Source: Alloascoidea hylecoeti (Eukaryota). From it: a DNA stretch of 42,882 nt. Below, piece after piece: positions 34,323 to 42,882 of the stretch. Where the stretch lies: assembly GCA_001600815.1 (NCBI GenBank), contig BCKZ01000004.1, positions 1,391,566 to 1,434,447 of the forward strand. Reading direction: 5' to 3'. The notes under the pieces are model-generated. The model had not been told where the DNA came from. It made no database searches and saw nothing but the letters and a program-made list of their open reading frames with translations. A program made the position numbers and the translations under genes. How positions within the stretch are numbered: the first letter of the stretch is position 1; each line of letters starts with the position of its first letter.

Positions 34323-35584
34323 TTGAATTCAAAATGGGTAATGTAAAAAAATGTATAGTATCAGTTAGGATGGACTTAAAAGTTTTGTTTCTCTTTTTCT
34401 TGCTTTCAATATGCTTAAGCTCTCTATAAGGTTGAGTATATTGTTTGTGTAATATACATGATCTTATAGAGTGATGATATCAATGATATAAAATGATGTG
34501 TCAAAAGTCATATTTAATTAATATCAACAGTAAATGATTAGCTGAAGCTTAAGTGAATTTATACACTATGAAATGACTTCATCTCTTAAAATAGAAATTA
34601 ATTCATTATGTACAACAATAACAAATACTTTAACGCGTAATTCATTTAATATTAACTATTTCATACAAAAATGCTGCAAACTATAGCATAAGTAATGAGA
34701 AGTTAAAGCCCTACAGTAAACGGATTTGCGGATAATTACGTATTAGATCTAGATCTATCTGTGTTCTCTGAGTTTGATCAGGTAAAAGTATACCAAATTT
34801 TATTCTATTCGATCTCTGTAAATTCATATTGAAAAATATTTATAGTAAGACTTATTCAAGTCCATCAGCTTTATTTTGAAATCACAGGCGTTACTAAGTT
34901 AACTCCGATACTTTTAATGTTTTCTTTATTTTTATAATTCTTAAAGGTTCATAACTATTGTCGACACCTTCAAACTGTCCGGATCCTACAACTCCAAACC
35001 CATCCGCGATAAGCTTATAATGATTTATAAATAAGTGACATAATATCTACGCAGGGACCTGCAGGTACAAAGTCACTCAATAAATGGTAGCCTACTTTTA
35101 TTTTTTTTAAATAAAATGATGGTTTGGTGATGTATCTTTAATAATAATATAATCTGAATCATCAATGTTTGAATAGTTTGATACAGAGGTTGTGTTTGAG
35201 ATTTATTGCAATATTTATTAGAAACATAAAGAGCTAGTAAATATTATATAAAGGAAAAAAAGTTTAAGATTAATATTATTAAATCTATAGTAAATAAAAG
35301 GAGTTAAGGGTATAGAGTATTTCATTATAATCATAAGAACCCAGTACTTATTTGTGTTTATAGCTATAGATCTATGTCACTATAGCTACTAAAGTCATAT
35401 TTGAGCTCGTAATTCTATAGTAATTACTACTTGTGCTTGAAACTTATTTCTCAATTTTAATATCTTTTATTCAATTAAACTAAACATCATAAAACTATAT
35501 TTATCACTATATAAGCTTATATCTTCATAATTAACATGGTGCAATTTTGCAATTGTCCAACATATCGCTATCAATCATTATAAT

Positions 35585-36016
35585 TTACTCGATAACACGA
35601 ATGGCAATTCCAAGAGATCCAGATGGAGCGTTGGATGTTGCATACCAATAAACATTATAACTTCCATCATCATTTTCCAAAACAGTTGCATGCTCTTCAC
35701 CATTCAAAGCTAAATGGTTATCAACAACAGACCAACCAGTAATGGAACTACCTGAACCATCTGGAGAGTAGGTAAGCTTATTGTTATCAGTAATATCGAG
35801 GTAATAAGAAGTTCCTGGCGCGACTTCAACCTTTCCATCTGAAGTTATAGTAGCATTGATTGCAGTACCTTTTCCAAGAACAACATCATAAGATTCTGAT
35901 GTAAGAGAAAGAGGTAAATATTGGACAGCACTTCCTGAACGAATAGAAATTAGACCAACGGCAGAAGCATAAGTAGCTAAAGAAAGAGCAGCAGCAATAG
36001 AAGTAGCGAATTTCAT
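35585..36016 (-). CDS. Secreted Cwp1-like cell-wall protein, copy A
   Basis: Signal peptide MKFATSIAAALSLATYASA. GLISIRSGSAVQY, ATITSDGK, GWSVVDNHL and LGIAIR parallel the Cwp1 N-terminal domain (GLVSIRSGSDLQY, ATITDDGK, GFSIKDGHL, GVAIR). No Ser-rich, PIR or GPI tail. Confidence 0.8.
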   Translation of the reverse strand: MKFATSIAAALSLATYASAVGLISIRSGSAVQYLPLSLTSESYDVVLGKGTAINATITSDGKVEVAPGTSYYLDITDNNKLTYSPDGSGSSITGWSVVDNHLALNGEEHATVLENDDGSYNVYWYATSNAPSGSLGIAIRVIE

Positions 36017-37367
36017 TTTTAATGATTTCTGAGGAATTATCTGATATATGAATCTGATAAATAACTTACAAAAGTTGAGGATAATAAACCAATTTATACT
36101 TTTCTTTTGAAGGGTTTAACATCTATAGAATGGATCTAGCCAGCTAGATGTTTTTGAGACAAATATTAATCTATCCTATCATATGGCTGTATCTTCTTAA
36201 ATATATTAGAAGAAATATGAGATCATTTTATTGGAATTCTATATCGAGATCTCTGAATATAATGTTCCTCTAAAATAATTAAAGAAAGCTGTCATTTTCT
36301 GAAATTAAACAATTACTGTATGTTTATTATGATTAATTGGATCAGCGGATACTTAATTATGATTAAATTAACGTTTCTTAAAGCCTCATAACTACTGGTA
36401 TTTATAATGGTTTCAAATAAATTTTCAGTCCATAATTATTTATAGATTTATGTAAGAAAAGACCATATATATGGTTTTCATGTAAAGATTAGCTATAGCT
36501 GATCATGGTACTAAATTTTGTTACCAATCCAAATCAAATAACGATTGGCTATGCTATATAGTGGGTTTAGCTGCCCTTAATAGATATCTTCATCAACTTG
36601 TAATTATTGTAATTATTGCAACTATGACTATAACATACATATAAATTTGGCGTCTTTATCTTCTTTATTATTAACTTAAGTATACGTGTTAATTATTATA
36701 AGATAGAAAGCAATTAAATTATGAAATATGAGATGTAATGTGTGTACAATATGTATCTTACTCTACTACCTTTAACATTTTAATATATATCAGGGGTAAG
36801 TTTGAAGCTCATACACAGAGATGGAGACACCACTGGCGCTATAGTTAAGCTTAATTAGAGGTTGCAATTGAATACTCAAATGAGACAATTATAATAAACT
36901 GTCTTACCATATTTAAAAACCGTTATTTTTATATGTCTTTCAATTTTAAATTTAGTTTATTAGCTTGAAAATTGATCCGAGATGTATCGTAGCTGTAGTT
37001 ATATGATGTAATCATGCATAAACGAGCACCTAACCTTAAATAAAGAACAACGCCATGCTTTAAACAAACTGAGACATGTTTAAGGCCTTCTTTGCATTTA
37101 AAGTACCCAATATAATTATATTAATTAATCCGAGTTTCTAATGATTATAAAGGTCTGTGGTTATGCATTAGCTGTAGTTAAGCTACATGCTTTTTTTTAT
37201 ATATGGGTCTAAAGAATAATGAAGGGTTAAAAACATCTAGCTGGCTAGATCCATTCTATAGATGTTAAACCCTTCAAAAGAAAAGTATAAATTGGTTTAT
37301 TATCCTCAACTTTTGTAAGTTATTTATCAGATTCATATATCAGATAATTCCTCAGAAATCATTAAAA

Positions 37368-37799
37368 ATGAAATTCGCTACTTCTATTGCTGCTGCTCTT
37401 TCTTTAGCTACTTATGCTTCTGCCGTTGGTCTAATTTCTATTCGTTCAGGAAGTGCTGTCCAATATTTACCTCTTTCTCTTACATCAGAATCTTATGATG
37501 TTGTTCTTGGAAAAGGTACTGCAATCAATGCTACTATAACTTCAGATGGAAAGGTTGAAGTCGCGCCAGGAACTTCTTATTACCTCGATATTACTGATAA
37601 CAATAAGCTTACCTACTCTCCAGATGGTTCAGGTAGTTCCATTACTGGTTGGTCTGTTGTTGATAACCATTTAGCTTTGAATGGTGAAGAGCATGCAACT
37701 GTTTTGGAAAATGATGATGGAAGTTATAATGTTTATTGGTATGCAACATCCAACGCTCCATCTGGATCTCTTGGAATTGCCATTCGTGTTATCGAGTAA
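37368..37799 (+). CDS. Secreted Cwp1-like cell-wall protein, copy B (identical to copy A)
   Basis: Same 143-aa translation as 35585-36016; TATAAA at about 37286. Confidence 0.8.
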   Translation: MKFATSIAAALSLATYASAVGLISIRSGSAVQYLPLSLTSESYDVVLGKGTAINATITSDGKVEVAPGTSYYLDITDNNKLTYSPDGSGSSITGWSVVDNHLALNGEEHATVLENDDGSYNVYWYATSNAPSGSLGIAIRVIE

Positions 37800-38077
37800 A
37801 TAAAATTACTATTATTAGAAACATTGGATTTAATATTATTAAATAAATGTCAGTTTGTTGAAGTTAATTATCGATAGTTTTATAGCTAAATATGATTGGA
37901 TTAATAATAATGATAATGAAATTTGTTGCTTATTTTGACTGTATTTCTAGTTATTGTTTGAGAGTTTTTTTTTCTCAATAAAATCCTGATACCACGCACC
38001 CAAATTGGAATTGATAGAAGTGACCTATTAGTTATTGTGACCAGTTGGTGTGGTCTTTCCCCTCGTTATAAGCTATA

Positions 38078-38102: not shown

Positions 38103-38264
38103 CGTTTTAATGTATATGTATGTGGGGAAACTTTATTGAATTTGATAACATACTGGATTGTTGGCCAATATGGTGCATAAAGTACTAACTTAGCCAGCCT
38201 ATATTCTACTTTCAATTAACTGTTCTAAATTCAATATTTATATTTTTACCCAGAAATACATTTT

Positions 38265-38623
38265 TGCTGGATATATTACACTCTCGGAATTCACTAAAGA
38301 GTCGATTGGCTCTTTGGCGCAACTGGGAGAACAGGCACTTTGAACTTTAACATGGTAGCGGCGCAGTACGGGAGGCAAGTACACACAACAGGATCGTCGT
38401 CACAGGTGATAAACGTACAACAATCGACTCGGTAGAATTATCAATGCTGCCAAAATTAACAATCGACTGTTTACCACAATCCTTCAAAACGTGGGAATAT
38501 CTAATAAAATCAACCTTAAGAAGATTAAACTTATCTGAATATATTTTAGATGAAACCATATATGATGATCTTCCAACTGAAGACGTTCTTTCTATAATAA
38601 AACTCTACTATGCATCAGAATAA
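38265..38623 (+). mobile_element. 5' end of a Ty1/copia-like element: 88-bp LTR (38265-38352), primer-binding site (38353-38364) and gag-like remnant (38444-38623)
   Basis: The LTR ends TTTAACA and is followed at once by TGGTAGCGGCGC, 11/12 to the complement of the S. cerevisiae tRNA-iMet 3' end as I recall it (TGGTAGCGCCGC). The ORF MLPKLTIDCLPQSFKTWEYLIKSTLRRLNLSEYI resembles a copia Gag N-terminus. Confidence 0.7.
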
Positions 38624-39661
38624 ATCCAAGAGCATCAACCAACAAGAGTCCACGAGCCGACAATTTTTTGTTCTCTGTATCCTACGTATATTACGATTAA
38701 GAATGGTCAACAATTGTAAGATTCAAATTAAGTTGAAGTTTCTAATTGAAATACCAATTAATGGTTTAATTAAGCTTCAGCAGCGCTACAATGAATGTCT
38801 TTTGTTTTCAACCAAAATTAAGTTATTTTTTTAATAGGGGAATAATTCTATATGCTCTAATCACTATTTAAAGTGGAGGGAAGATATTTATTGCACTATA
38901 CGCATGTTTAAATTAAGCTTTTAAAAGTTTACTTCCACGATCCTCTCATCTTAGCTATTCCTATTTCTAATCTTATAAAGAATTTTATATAATAGTTTTA
39001 ACGGGAGATTAGTATATTTGGAAGAGCTACACAATTATTTAAAGGTTGTAAGGCATAACTTGATTACGTCTACCGTATCTGAATCAATACAATCGCGAAA
39101 AAGTTACGCTCACTTAAGTACACAATTAGGTAGAAAGTTAGATAGAGTGTTAAATAGAACTCAAAGGTTAGTTCACGATTTAGCCTCATCAGAAGCCACC
39201 TTCTCTTTTATTATCATCTAATGAATGAATCAATTAGAACCAATGGGGAGATATCTTTTCTATTTCTATATATATATTGCTATTTAATGAGTATTGAATA
39301 AAATGATTCTAGTTGATGAATGTAATGTGGCCAATGACTATATATAACACGGTAAATGTTGCGATTCTATTATTAAAGCTTGATGTATTGATTCCTTCAC
39401 TTATTTATCTAGCTAACTGTATGTTTTTTCTATATAATTTCATAAAAGTACCATGGAGTTAATTTATTAGTTAATCACTTGGTGAGAGGATATGCGGATT
39501 ACAGTCAATAATATGTCATACTACCTCAAAATGATTTTTTCGGGGAAAAAAGAGATATAAAGCAAAACATTGGTGTTTTGAAAACTATATAATTGATAAT
39601 ATCTGCGCTTCATATAAAATATATAGAGCACTGTTATAATGTACAATTGTACTACATAATA

Positions 39662-39754
39662 TGTTGGATATATATTACACTCTTAGAACAGTTCACTAAA
39701 GAGTCGATTGGCTTTTTGGCGCAACTGGGAGAACAGGCACTTTGAACTTTAACA
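39662..39754 (+). mobile_element. 93-bp solo LTR
   Basis: TGTTGG...TTAACA flanked by the 5-bp duplication TAATA (39657-39661 / 39755-39759). Confidence 0.88.
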
Positions 39755-39877
39755 TAATACATTCTAAAGTAACCTTCATAAAGCGGTGGGAACTCGGGCT
39801 CTAGAAAATGCATAATAGTGTATATAGCTACCTACTAACCTGATAAATCAGTTAGCTCAATTCAATCTATTGTCAAT

Positions 39878-39968
39878 TGTTAAAGTTCAAAGTGCCTTTT
39901 CTCCCAGTTGCGCCAAAAAACCAATCGACTCTTTAGTGAACTGTTCCAAGAGTGTAATATATCCAACA
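39878..39968 (-). mobile_element. 91-bp solo LTR
   Basis: Same family, with 3 substitutions and a 2-bp deletion relative to the 39662 copy; 5-bp duplication TCAAT (39873-39877 / 39969-39973). Confidence 0.88.
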
Positions 39969-40149
39969 TCAATTGATTATTAGAGAGAGATATTAACGTT
40001 AATATTAATAATTTCACAATTTTTCCTACCACAACTGCACTTTAACTAGAGGATAGTTACCTTAGTTACTGATGACTTGTATGTGCATAAGGATAGAATA
40101 GTAAACGATTTTTCACTGCTTAATACAGTTTAGGTGGGTTTGTAAAAGT

Positions 40150-40270
40150 ATGCATATACCAAGAACAATGTTAAATCATACCTAAATAGAACACTACATA
40201 AAATCAATAAGAATATTGATTGTGTAGCCTAAACCAAACTATGCAAATGCATATCTCCTAAATCGAAATT
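40150..40270 (+). pseudogene. Highly degenerate copia integrase-like remnant
   Basis: LNRTL (40182-40196) and NYANAYLLNR (40237-40266) occur in different frames and resemble the copia integrase ER.NRTL...A.Y..NR pattern. Confidence 0.35.
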
Positions 40271-40883
40271 AGCATATTATTAACTAGTAATATTTAACTT
40301 TAAGAATCCTATTCCTGAACAGGATTAAATAAGAAAAAATGATTCACAAATTCAAGAGCTACAGTAACAAAATTTGATTTGGAATAACAAACGCAAACGC
40401 AAACGCAATCACAACACAATACAATATGTTTGTTTCTAATTATTACCGAAATTTAATCATTAAGGATCACTACTGTAACTAAAAATCGTTTTGTCGAACT
40501 TGGACAAGTATTCTCTAGTATCAGAAGAATAAGCGAACATCATATGAATGATATAGAAGGCTATTATAAGATAGTTAAGGGTTTAAAATTTGCACGCAGA
40601 TATATTATTCAAGATGTCCTAGGACAAGAGTGCTGAAAGGGATCAGAATTTTAATGAGGCTTTCAGAAAATAGTGAATCCGAACAACGGTTGTTTAGAAA
40701 TAAAAGACAATTGTTTGTAATTACCACATTCGTATAGTGTCTGACTTATTGGGAGAGGACTTGTATGAATATTTGAACAATGCTATCACCCCATATAATG
40801 TTATTCCTAATATGGTGATGGGTAGTTTATATAATTTGTGAGATATACAATCTATCATGGAGCAACTGATTCGATCCATTGGG

Positions 40884-41321
40884 TATTGGGTTTACTAGCT
40901 TGAAACATCATGGCTGGTTTAGAAGATCTACATTATTTTTGAGGGGTAAAATAAATTACATATATATAGAGTAGATGATTTCCACTTATAATAAGATAAC
41001 TGAGAATAGATCAATAATTTTCCTATAACGCTTTAAAATCGCTTACACAACAATGAGCTTAGAACTTTATATTAAGCAATTAAATGAAACTATGCAAGAA
41101 TTTGTGAAGCTCAAGGAGGAGAAGGAAACTCTTGCATAGTTTCATTTAATTGTTTAATATAAAGTTCTAAGCTCATTGTTGTGTAAGCGATTTTAAAGCG
41201 TTATAGGAAAATTATTGATCTATTCTCAGTTATCTTATTATAAGTGGAAATCATCTACTCTATATATATGTAATTTATTTTACCCCTCAAAAATAATGTA
41301 GATCTTCTAGTAAACCCAATA
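40884..41321. repeat. Two LTR copies tail-to-tail forming a fold-back (arms 40920-41103 and 41126-41309, 22-bp spacer)
   Basis: 184-bp arms with 2 mismatches seen; a further 16-bp match at 40883-40898 / 41307-41322. The minus-strand copy directly follows the polypurine tract of the pol fragment, so it is that element's 3' LTR. Confidence 0.85.
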
Positions 41322-41331
41322 CTCCTTCTTC
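41322..41331 (-). other. Polypurine tract GAAGAAGGAG
   Basis: Lies between the pol stop codon (41347-41349) and the LTR start at 41321. Confidence 0.75.
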
Positions 41332-41346
41332 ACTAACACCAAAACG

Positions 41347-42377
41347 TCAATTAAAACTAATTGGTTTAGTGAACCTTAACTTCTGTAATGATTTCTTAAA
41401 CACCAATTTATTAACAGGTTTGGTAAGAAAATCTGAATAATTATTTTCAGACTCAACACGAGCAAGTTTTTCTTCTCGGTTATTTCTAAACCTGTTTCTT
41501 AAATCTCTCAAAACAACGTCTAAATTAGCTCTTCTAGCCTTTACTTTCGGGTTCTTAATCCAAGNTTCAACATTTTTATTGTCCTCATAAAACGTTATGT
41601 CAAACTTACCATAGATATGAATCAAGACCTCCTTCATTGAATCATAAGCTTCAACACCATGATCAAGGGCATAAAGCTCAGAGATAGAAGTACTTCTACT
41701 CAACTTTTNTTGTTTTGAAGAAGTCCAATAGCATAGATTTTTATCAACCATAATGACTACACCNCTCGTACTTTTTCTAGTACTCAGGTCTCCTGCATAG
41801 TCGCTATCGATATATACTTCAACAGATGTATTGTCAACAGCTCCTTCATGTTTCTCAAATAAAATGCCATTTTCAATATTATTCATCAAATATTTCATAA
41901 TATCTAATATCAATGACCATGTTTCTTTACTCTCTATGCTGGTAAATCTACTGAGATATGATGTGATATATGACAAGTCTACNCTTAACCAATTTGCTAA
42001 ATAAAGTAGTTTGCCAATGATGGTTTTGTATTTGGAATCATTATTAATTATTATGTTCAATAGATCCTTATCTAGATAATTGTTAGGAATATAAGGAATT
42101 TCATGATTCCCCTTGTATTCATGCTCCTTCAAGTTCATTATATCGCATAGCAGTTCTTTAATAGCCGCCGGTTTATTGATAAACACAGATTCAATCGTAT
42201 TATTGATCAATTTAATATCAACATCTAAACCAAGCAATCTAAATTTAAAGTTGTCTTTGCCAGCTTCAGGAGTTTTCCATTTAACGGAGTATTTAGATTC
42301 TGGAAAAACAACAGAATTCATAAATGTAAGATCTTCAGCACTCTCGTAGATAATTAGGGCATCATCTACATATAAAC
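41347..42377 (-). mobile_element. Ty1/copia pol fragment: C-terminal reverse transcriptase and RNase H
   Basis: Frame continues upstream of the listed Met to SLYVDDALI (YVDD at 42361-42372). Also LLGLDV, YKTIIGKLLYLA, and RNase H motifs YIDSDYAG, ELYAL, EDNK, NYSDFLTK. Truncated just upstream of YVDD. Confidence 0.93.
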
Positions 42378-42700
42378 TATTGGATATATAGTTATATAAT
42401 TAAATTAAAATAGTTTTTGTTATTACATAGTGTTAAAGTTCAAAGTGCCTGTTCTCCCAGTTGCGCCAAAAAGCCAATCGACTCTTTAGTGAACTGTTCT
42501 AAGAGTGTAATATATATCCAACACATAGTTTCATATATATGGGGTGATATTTATGAAGATCTTCATTTCCCTTATATATTAGCGAGTGGCCACATTATTT
42601 AGTTTTAGAAAACACACGTTCTTTATAATATAAATTTATTACCAACTATGCCTCCGAAACAATTCAAGGACATCGCCACTGATGAGCCCATAACCCAACA
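42378..42700. mobile_element. Probable LTR (about 225 bp net) interrupted by a 93-bp solo LTR
   Basis: Bounded by TATTGG...CCAACA and non-coding; separates the minus-strand RT from the plus-strand integrase. Flanks TAAAC and GATCT do not match. Confidence 0.55.
42431..42523 (-). mobile_element. 93-bp solo LTR, nested
   Basis: Reverse complement is identical to 39662-39754; 5-bp duplication CATAG (42426-42430 / 42524-42528). Confidence 0.9.
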
Positions 42701-42702
42701 GA

Positions 42703-42882
42703 TCTGTTGAATCTCCTCAAAGTCAGGGTTCTGTTGAGAAGGAGAATCATGTGGNTTTGAATTTGGTCAGGTCCATTTTACACGATTCTAACCTCGGTGA
42801 TAGATTTTGGGATCTAGCTGCAAAATATGCAATTGTGACTCGCAATATCATTTTGGGTAAATTTAATCAATTGGGAATTAAT
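42703..42882 (+). mobile_element. Ty1/copia integrase fragment, runs off the window
   Basis: Translates SVESPQSQGSVEKENHVXLNLVRSILHDSNLGDRFWDLAAKYAIVTRN, matching the copia integrase pattern PQ.NG..ER.N......RS.L..S.L...FW..A..YA...N. Confidence 0.8.

What the first reader, a model, noticed from the sequence alone, without database searches (positions are those of the whole stretch)
38265..42523. Retrotransposon family with an ultra-short (88-93 bp) LTR, inserted four times within 4.3 kb
Seen: four copies of a TG...CA element at 38265-38352, 39662-39754, 39878-39968 and 42431-42523. Three have distinct exact 5-bp target duplications (TAATA, TCAAT, CATAG), and two copies are identical. The fourth is followed with no gap by TGGTAGCG and then a Gag-like ORF. 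Known: 5-bp duplications, TG...CA ends and a PBS abutting the LTR are Ty1/copia hallmarks, but yeast Ty LTRs are typically a few hundred bp. Inference: either a recently active element that fits U3-R-U5 into about 93 bp (needing an internal or borrowed promoter), or a non-autonomous unit mobilised by another element's integrase.
Basis: partly seen in the sequence, partly recalled or inferred. Interest (0 to 1): 0.8.

Follow-up and report, generated by a model that had tools for sequence, protein, structure and literature searches.

The report
Miniature yeast retrotransposon borrowing several helpers
The four short repeats are leftovers of a 396-base, gene-less retrotransposon in a yeast-like genome that appears to borrow the machinery of several larger retrotransposons and probably uses a tRNA-gene-type promoter, an arrangement I found no report of in budding yeasts.

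Summary
The 88-93 bp repeat is the whole LTR of a 396-bp non-coding TRIM (LTR, 12-nt tRNA-iMet PBS, 210 bp, PPT, LTR). The genome has at least 108 LTR copies, 7 complete elements with 5-bp TSDs and 50 TSD-flanked solo LTRs among the loci fetched. No longer LTR and no gag-pol of its own were found. The gag after copy 1 belongs to another copia family: copy 1 is a 398-bp chimera (38265-38662) with its own TSD, ATTTT. Ten of 12 such TRIM-by-helper units tested have exact TSDs, involving four copia families, which points to several helpers. A TATA-like run, T5 and an A box lie in the LTR, and a B box lies 30 nt past it. A tRNA-targeted Ty3-like LTR sits in one TRIM LTR 20 nt before that A box, its modal distance at tRNA genes; this single event supports Pol III factor binding. 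No transcript was examined. This scan had already noted the TRIM and the Pol III motifs elsewhere in this genome; the footprint and the helper census are added here. New variant of a known kind (TRIM, TRIMp3-like).

The parts
38260..38264 (+). left target-site duplication (ATTTT) of the chimeric unit
38265..38352 (+). TRIM LTR copy 1 (88 bp, diverged, T5 run broken), 5' end of a 398-bp chimeric unit
38353..38364 (+). primer-binding site, exact 12-nt complement of the 3' end of this genome's initiator tRNA-Met (CCA included)
38365..38590 (+). leader and 5' gag fragment of copia subfamily A2 (not the TRIM's own); frame 38444-38623 stops after 59 codons
   Evidence: family A is copia by Pfam
38583..38662 (+). 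3' 80 nt of the A2 LTR, joined to gag through an 8-nt overlap (38583-38590); right end of the chimeric unit
   Evidence: 86-90% to A2 solo LTR ends
38663..38667 (+). right target-site duplication (ATTTT)
39662..39754 (+). solo TRIM LTR copy 2 (93 bp), TSD TAATA at 39657-39661 and 39755-39759
39668..39675 (+). TATA-like AT run, LTR nt 7-14, about 30 nt before the predicted Pol III start
   Evidence: sequence; function inferred
39698..39702 (+). predicted Pol III start region, LTR nt 37-41; nt 36-40 is where a tRNA-targeted gypsy-like LTR sits in another copy (L212)
   Evidence: start not mapped
39713..39717 (+). T5 run, LTR nt 52-56, candidate Pol III terminator; the only run of 4 or more T on the TRIM sense strand apart from its twin in the other LTR
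39717..39728 (+). A-box-like motif, LTR nt 56-67; the B box lies in the TRIM interior, which is absent from this window
39878..39968 (-). solo TRIM LTR copy 3 (91 bp), TSD TCAAT at 39873-39877 and 39969-39973
42431..42523 (-). solo TRIM LTR copy 4 (93 bp, identical to copy 2), TSD CATAG at 42426-42430 and 42524-42528
42378..42700 (+). LTR of copia family A (about 226 bp without the insert), host of copy 4, which sits after its nt 54

Best explanation
The repeat is the LTR of a non-autonomous TRIM of 396 bp. SHOWN: structure LTR(91-93)-PBS-210 bp non-coding-PPT-LTR, 5-bp TSDs, many solo LTRs, recent spread, and a PBS shared with at least four copia families (A, B, C, D). INFERRED: (1) Pol III transcribes it from a promoter split across the LTR-interior border: A box in the LTR, B box 30 nt into the interior, start at about LTR nt 37-41, end at the T5 of the 3' LTR, giving an RNA of about 320 nt with an R region of roughly 12-20 nt. 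Solo and 3' LTRs lack the B box and would be quiet. (2) The RNA enters particles of several copia families, is primed by tRNA-iMet, reverse-transcribed and integrated by their enzymes. (3) Because the PBS is shared, plus-strand transfer sometimes crosses between TRIM and helper cDNAs, giving chimeras such as copy 1. (4) LTR-LTR recombination leaves solos such as copies 2-4. Confidence by step: TRIM 0.97; several copia helpers 0.8; Pol III promoter 0.7.
For: Complete elements: 7 on single contigs with exact 5-bp TSD (5; L058 and L063). Of the 5 measured, 3 have identical LTR pairs. Interior found near full length 17 times among 33 of 33 candidates, 6 identical. A 328-nt contig of run X2 joins LTR, PBS, 198 letters and LTR. 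50 solos with exact 5-bp TSD, 0 of 50 with 6 bp; 28 of 131 LTR hits identical to copy 2. PBS matches the genome's tRNA-iMet over 12 nt. Helpers: A, B, D hit copia gag; C hits gag-pre-integrase weakly. 10 of 12 TRIM-by-helper units have exact TSDs: A2 1, B 3, C 4, D 2. L135 joins a TRIM LTR and a C LTR head to head through the palindromic last 4 nt of two 12-nt PBS copies. No helper-by-helper swap among A, B, C, D, G and no TRIM-by-gypsy-G chimera among 71 distinct PBS contexts. Pol III: exact B-box 11-mer (105 genome hits against 10 for the control; 22 of 30 hits examined are tRNA genes); intact in 17 of 19 interiors, both losses private, while shared variants remove bases next to it. A-to-B spacing 67 nt against 42-68 in 22 tRNA genes here. 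Gypsy-like family H ends 19-21 nt before the A box at 16 of 18 scorable tRNA genes (25 examined; mode 20), and exactly 20 nt before the predicted A box in TRIM LTR L212, with no tRNA gene within 1.5 kb. Ty3 targeting needs TFIIIB/TFIIIC on the promoter (PMC5911963, passages).
Against: No transcript was examined, so start, end and polymerase are unmapped. The footprint is one event (two records with the same flanks; one search found no second among 9 hits), in an LTR that is now solo and has no B box, so insertion must precede solo formation or need only TATA plus A box. T5 is the commonest first T-run behind tRNA genes here (18 of 46), so the T5 of the 5' LTR should stop many transcripts early; read-through is assumed (T5 is leaky in S. 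cerevisiae, PMC5356446, passages). 5'-truncated LTR-plus-PBS junctions start at nt 53-56, 60, 67 (after poly-A), 68 and 85, none at 37-41; only one PBS-less young piece starts at nt 41 (L072). A shuffle test of the A-box score was not significant (480 of 5000; matrix partly out of register). 2 of 12 chimeric units lack a TSD. No chimera proves shared particles. The TRIM's PPT differs from those seen for A, C and D. Long N runs hide parts of full-length elements.
Confidence: 0.68

Rival explanations
1. [quoted passage not shown]
For: Truncated LTR-plus-PBS junctions at nt 53-68, one directly behind a poly-A tail at nt 67 and present twice in one unit, look like strong-stop ends. The T5 lies only 12-20 nt after the proposed Pol III start.
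Against: Does not explain the H insertion at the tRNA register; TFIIIC-only sites are not Ty3 targets (PMC5911963, passages). The AT box varies in older copies. The exact B box is kept in 17 of 19 interiors.
Confidence: 0.2
2. One helper family (or a missing parent) moves the TRIM; the chimeras arise at the DNA level, by cDNA ends annealing in the nucleus or by repair through the 12-nt PBS.
For: The genome has many fold-back and fused retrotransposon products of single families too. The LTR's first 12 nt resemble family A's start most. 2 of 12 units have no TSD.
Against: 10 of 12 units carry 5-bp TSDs around the whole unit; in 8 of them one end is a TRIM end and the other a helper end, so they were integrated whole. 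No helper-by-helper swaps although they share the same PBS.
Confidence: 0.2
3. An autonomous Ty1/copia element with a 93-bp LTR exists and the minis are its deletion products.
For: LTR plus PBS is followed by gag in copy 1 and by a 639-codon gag-integrase frame in L133. Full-length elements are partly hidden by N runs.
Against: Those gag sequences belong to families A2 and B, which have their own LTRs. All 27 PPT-preceded LTRs carry the TRIM 3' end. The interior has no match to any helper interior tested.
Confidence: 0.04
4. The repeat is a MITE-like DNA element or a deletion product of a longer LTR.
For: Most copies stand alone with a TSD.
Against: Paired direct repeats with PBS and PPT; no long terminal inverted repeat; every solo ends at 91 or 93 bp.
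Confidence: 0.01

Closest known systems
TRIM and SMART (FRetro129 of grasses, 292 bp, 85-bp LTR; PMC3281118, passages)
   Same: Tiny non-coding LTR element, LTR under 100 bp, 5-bp TSD, solo LTRs, copia helper suggested.
   Different: Yeast-like host; solos far outnumber complete elements (50 against 7 in the loci fetched), whereas complete elements outnumber solos 3.4 to 50-fold in grasses; chimeras link it to four helper families instead of one candidate found by similarity.
Helenus (TRIMp3; Kojima 2024, PMC10886601, parts 1-4 of 6 read)
   Same: [quoted passage not shown]
   Different: Helenus has a tRNA-derived sequence with both boxes inside the LTR. Here the B box is outside the LTR, behind the PBS, and no tRNA-like fold was found (at 4 TRIM loci). 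Fungal Helenus is reported there from rusts and three Agaricomycetes only, with no functional test.
Cassandra (PMC10886601 introduction; PMC7215508 and PMC12486564, passages)
   Same: Pol III promoter and terminator in a TRIM; an R region of 18 nt, close to the 12-20 nt predicted here.
   Different: 5S-derived type 1 promoter wholly in the LTR; plants; helper unknown; transcription shown.
Tca1 of Candida albicans (PMC7175516, passage)
   Same: Non-autonomous LTR element without ORFs in a budding yeast.
   Different: 5.6 kb, about 14 times longer.
Ty1/copia of yeasts
   Same: TG...CA ends, 5-bp TSD, PBS for tRNA-iMet directly against the LTR.
   Different: No gag or pol; not enriched near tRNA genes (0 of 72 copies within 2 kb of a listed B box, about 1 expected).

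Membership tests
TRIM/SMART | two short direct terminal repeats around a short interior, under 1 kb in all | tested here: met
   322-396 bp, LTRs 90-93 bp
TRIM/SMART | PBS after the 5' LTR and PPT before the 3' LTR | tested here: met
   12-nt complement to this genome's tRNA-iMet; G-rich tract against the 3' LTR
TRIM/SMART | 5-bp target-site duplication | tested here: met
   7 complete elements and 50 solos
TRIM/SMART | no coding capacity | tested here: met
   all three sense frames of the 190-210 bp interior carry stops
TRIM/SMART | moved in trans by an autonomous LTR retrotransposon | tested here: inconclusive
   inferred from TSD-flanked chimeras with copia families A-D; no direct assay
Helenus | tRNA-derived sequence with A and B boxes inside each LTR | tested here: not met
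   B box at element nt 123-133, outside the 93-bp LTR; no Rfam match at E up to 5; ARAGORN finds no tRNA
TRIMp3 (any TRIM with a Pol III promoter) | Pol III promoter motifs | tested here: met
   B box exact, A-box-like motif at tRNA-gene spacing; A-box score alone not significant
TRIMp3 (any TRIM with a Pol III promoter) | Pol III factors bind and transcribe it | tested here: inconclusive
   one tRNA-targeted gypsy-like insertion at the exact register; transcription itself not testable here
Cassandra | 5S rRNA-derived domain in the LTR | tested here: not met
   no Rfam match
autonomous Ty1/copia | gag and pol (PR-IN-RT-RH) between its own LTRs | tested here: not met
   gag seen next to this LTR belongs to families A2 and B

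The most novel reading that the evidence does not exclude
A budding-yeast TRIM whose Pol III promoter exists only when LTR and interior are joined (A box in the LTR, B box behind the PBS), so that solo and 3' LTRs are switched off by design, and which rides as a generalist parasite in the particles of at least four copia families through their shared tRNA-iMet primer site. A tRNA-targeting Ty3-like element treats it as a tRNA gene.
Probability: 0.5. Interest if true: 0.75.

Novelty: new variant of a known kind. Interest (0 to 1): 0.6.

Why it matters
How TRIMs depend on their helpers is stated as not known, and Cassandra is called the only validated Pol III TRIM (PMC10886601, discussion). Here the genome itself records the partners, as TSD-flanked chimeras, and holds an in vivo mark of Pol III factor binding. 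A yeast host would make both questions testable with standard methods. It also shows that about 92 bp is enough for an LTR and for frequent solo formation. My searches listed no TRIM or TRIMp3 in Saccharomycotina; the library lacks most subscription papers and I could not search Repbase.

Tried and rejected
Extra pairing of the leader with tRNA-iMet (Ty1-like boxes): two 7-nt complements, duplex reached by 27 of 500 shuffles, and shared variants break both; not supported. Structured RNA: z = 0.78, 76 of 100 shuffles fold as well. Rfam: no match. Insertion near tRNA genes: none (only tRNA genes with the searched B box, 19 contigs). Polymorphism: contigs of runs X3, X5 and X6 run from the flanks into copies 1-3 and no empty site was listed; these may be the same strain and contigs do not show absence. 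RNA: no RNA holder listed. Relatives: 0 matches for an LTR-end, PBS, B-box pattern in metagenome contigs; the genome tool holds no relatives. A second H-type insertion in a TRIM LTR: none among 9 hits; that pattern selects for the A box, so the older copies it returned (82-90% identity) say nothing unbiased on A-box conservation. The apparent 6.7-kb element at C51 is an N gap between two half TRIMs whose flanks pair with small contigs C111/C113. Supplements of the papers were not read; Kojima's Table S1 may list hosts that bear on novelty.
Full report
Observation. The four copies, three TSDs, the identity of copies 2 and 4 and the PBS behind copy 1 are as described. The window is the end of contig C4 of a 24.8-Mb assembly in 136 contigs. 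The host looks like a budding yeast from its intron-poor genes (my reading, not a taxonomic test).

Family size. The 93-mer gave 184 candidates, 40 scored, 29 identical. A 20-nt core has 108 exact matches against 0 for the control; 100 places were listed and I fetched those not already held. In all loci fetched there are 131 distinct LTR hits (a few fold-back pieces are counted twice). 50 are full solos with an exact 5-bp TSD (32 of 93 bp, 18 of 91 bp; none extends to 6 bp) and 28 are identical to copy 2. The LTR is therefore 91-93 bp and not a piece of something longer. An older subfamily at 82-90% also exists. Four copies in 4.3 kb reflects a nest of mobile elements: 16 of 77 copies lie within 20 kb of a contig end against 3.1 expected, which may partly be assembly breakage at repeats.

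The element. Pairs of LTRs 283-303 bp apart enclose a 190-210 bp interior: PBS, non-coding sequence, G-rich PPT. The interior occurs near full length 17 times among 33 of 33 candidates, 6 identical. Seven elements are complete on one contig with their own TSD; of the five measured, three have identical LTRs, one has two mismatches and one three gap positions. Run X2 independently holds a contig joining LTR, PBS, 198 letters and LTR. All 27 PPT-preceded LTRs carry this interior's 3' end. No copy runs into a gag-pol of its own, with the caveat that N runs hide parts of long elements. The PBS is the exact 12-nt complement of the 3' end of the three initiator tRNA genes found. That 12 nt is where copying of yeast tRNA-iMet stops at modified position 64 is recalled, not tested.

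Copy 1 is a chimera. Its gag-like sequence is 94.5% identical to copia subfamily A2 and 80-85% to other family A copies, which carry their own 226-bp LTR. After 238 nt it switches, through an 8-nt overlap, to the last 80 nt of the A2 LTR, and the whole 398-bp unit is flanked by ATTTT. The simplest origin (inferred): an A2 minus strand that jumped into gag, completed by a TRIM plus strand annealing at the shared PBS, then integrated.

Several helpers. The PBS 12-mer occurs 75 times and is shared by copia families A, B, C, D and gypsy families G and H (C and H are assigned on weak Pfam hits and structure). Among 71 distinct PBS contexts there are 6 helper-LTR-plus-TRIM-interior joins (3 C, 2 B, 1 D), 3 TRIM-LTR-plus-helper-interior joins (1 A2, 2 B) and 2 head-to-head fusions (C, D). 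There is no swap among A, B, C, D and G themselves and none between the TRIM and G; one B-like LTR (L127) precedes an interior I did not assign. Of 12 TRIM-by-helper units whose two ends I could place, 10 have exact 5-bp TSDs; one further join (L220) had no placeable left end and was not counted. This shows joint integration. Shared particles are inferred; annealing of free cDNA ends in the nucleus remains possible.

Promoter. The interior has an exact B-box 11-mer 30 nt behind the LTR (105 genome hits against 10 control; 22 of 30 examined are tRNA genes). The LTR has an A-box-like 12-mer 67 nt upstream of it, whose first eight letters equal those of a tRNA-Cys gene here; tRNA genes here have 42-68 nt and yeast genes 31-93 (PMC5356446, passages). 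With starts 17-19 nt before the A box (same paper), transcription would begin at about LTR nt 37-39, 30 nt behind an AT-rich run, and the T5 at nt 52-56 would close a short R region, as in Cassandra (18 nt; PMC10886601). The B box is intact in 17 of 19 interiors. The one common variant in LTR nt 52-85 is C to T at nt 64, inside the A box and compatible with it. On its own the A-box score was not significant (480 of 5000 shuffles, with a partly misregistered matrix).

Evidence beyond motifs. In L212 (contig C34; the same locus again on C51) a solo TRIM LTR is split at nt 36-40 by a 346-bp TG...CA LTR of family H (duplication 4 of 5 letters). Of 28 other H loci, 26 hold a tRNA gene within 1.5 kb. 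At 18 of 25 distinct tRNA genes an H end could be scored; it lies 20 nt (9), 19 (5), 21 (2), 18 (1) or 17 (1) before the A box. In L212 it lies 20 nt before the predicted A box, with no tRNA gene nearby. H has a PBS 2 nt behind its LTR, as in Ty3 (spacing recalled). Ty3 inserts 1-4 nt from Pol III starts, needs TFIIIB and intact boxes, and ignores TFIIIC-only sites (PMC5911963, passages). TRIM LTRs make up about 0.04% of the genome, so a chance hit at this register is unlikely (rough estimate 0.0004 for 30 insertions, made after the fact). It is one event, and the copy now lacks a B box.

Against Pol III. T5 is the commonest first T-run behind tRNA genes here (18 of 46), so the 5' LTR must be read through. 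Truncated LTR-plus-PBS junctions begin at nt 53-56, 60, 67, 68 and 85, which suits a Pol II start at 56-68; only one young piece without PBS begins at nt 41. No transcript was examined.

Comparison. It meets the structural TRIM criteria tested; mobilisation in trans is inferred. It works like Helenus and Cassandra if the Pol III reading holds, but it is not a Helenus (B box outside the LTR, no tRNA body) and not a Cassandra (no 5S domain). Fungal TRIMs appear in listings for rusts and other filamentous fungi (listing only). My searches listed none for Saccharomycotina. Papers seen: PMC10886601 parts 1-4 of 6; passages of PMC3281118, PMC7215508, PMC12486564, PMC5911963, PMC5356446, PMC7175516; no supplements.

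Earlier scan notes describe this TRIM five times and the split Pol III motifs twice in other windows of this genome. I had reached both readings before the look-up (notes), and a repeat is not independent evidence. A word search for the Ty3-like footprint and helper chimeras returned nothing.

Verdict. Real feature; a TRIM with high confidence (0.97); several copia helpers likely (0.8); split Pol III promoter likely (0.7). New variant of a known kind; interest 0.6.

Noticed in passing
window 35583-37801: Two identical 143-aa secreted-looking genes in a perfect 573-nt inverted repeat, 1073 nt apart, transcribed outwards.
   Followed up: no
window 40920-42370: 3' end of a family C copia (RT/RNase H frame 41347-42321, minus strand), its PPT and LTR, with a fold-back copy of the LTR (184-nt arms).
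   Followed up: partly
window 42378-42882; L037, L136: LTRs of copia families A and C begin TA rather than TG, and C ends AA rather than CA; C ends still give 5-bp TSDs. The window ends in family B interior joined directly to the A LTR.
   Followed up: partly
L226-L253: Gypsy-like family H: LTR ends sit mostly 12-14 nt before mature tRNA 5' ends in both orientations, a Ty3-like targeting family.
   Followed up: yes
L136 (C47), L068 (C3), L200 (C16): Poly-A tails of other RNAs fused to TRIM LTR pieces or to the PPT end; the 2003-bp L136 unit has a 5-bp TSD.
   Followed up: partly
L134 (C13), L057, L074, L081, L053: Many fold-back and head-to-head cDNA products were integrated whole, in several families; reverse transcription in this genome seems error-prone.
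   Followed up: partly
L126, L131: Ty3/gypsy family G has copies with open pol frames of about 1400 codons and the same PBS, yet no chimera with the TRIM was seen.
   Followed up: partly
L233 1789-1876, L230 1233-1321: ARAGORN calls one tRNA-like gene as a stop suppressor with a 7-nt intron and a look-alike as tRNA-Leu; probably an intron-containing tRNA miscalled.
   Followed up: no
L035, L037, L116, L136: In families A, C and D the gag frame appears to open inside the LTR and read through the PBS, as recalled for Ty1.
   Followed up: no
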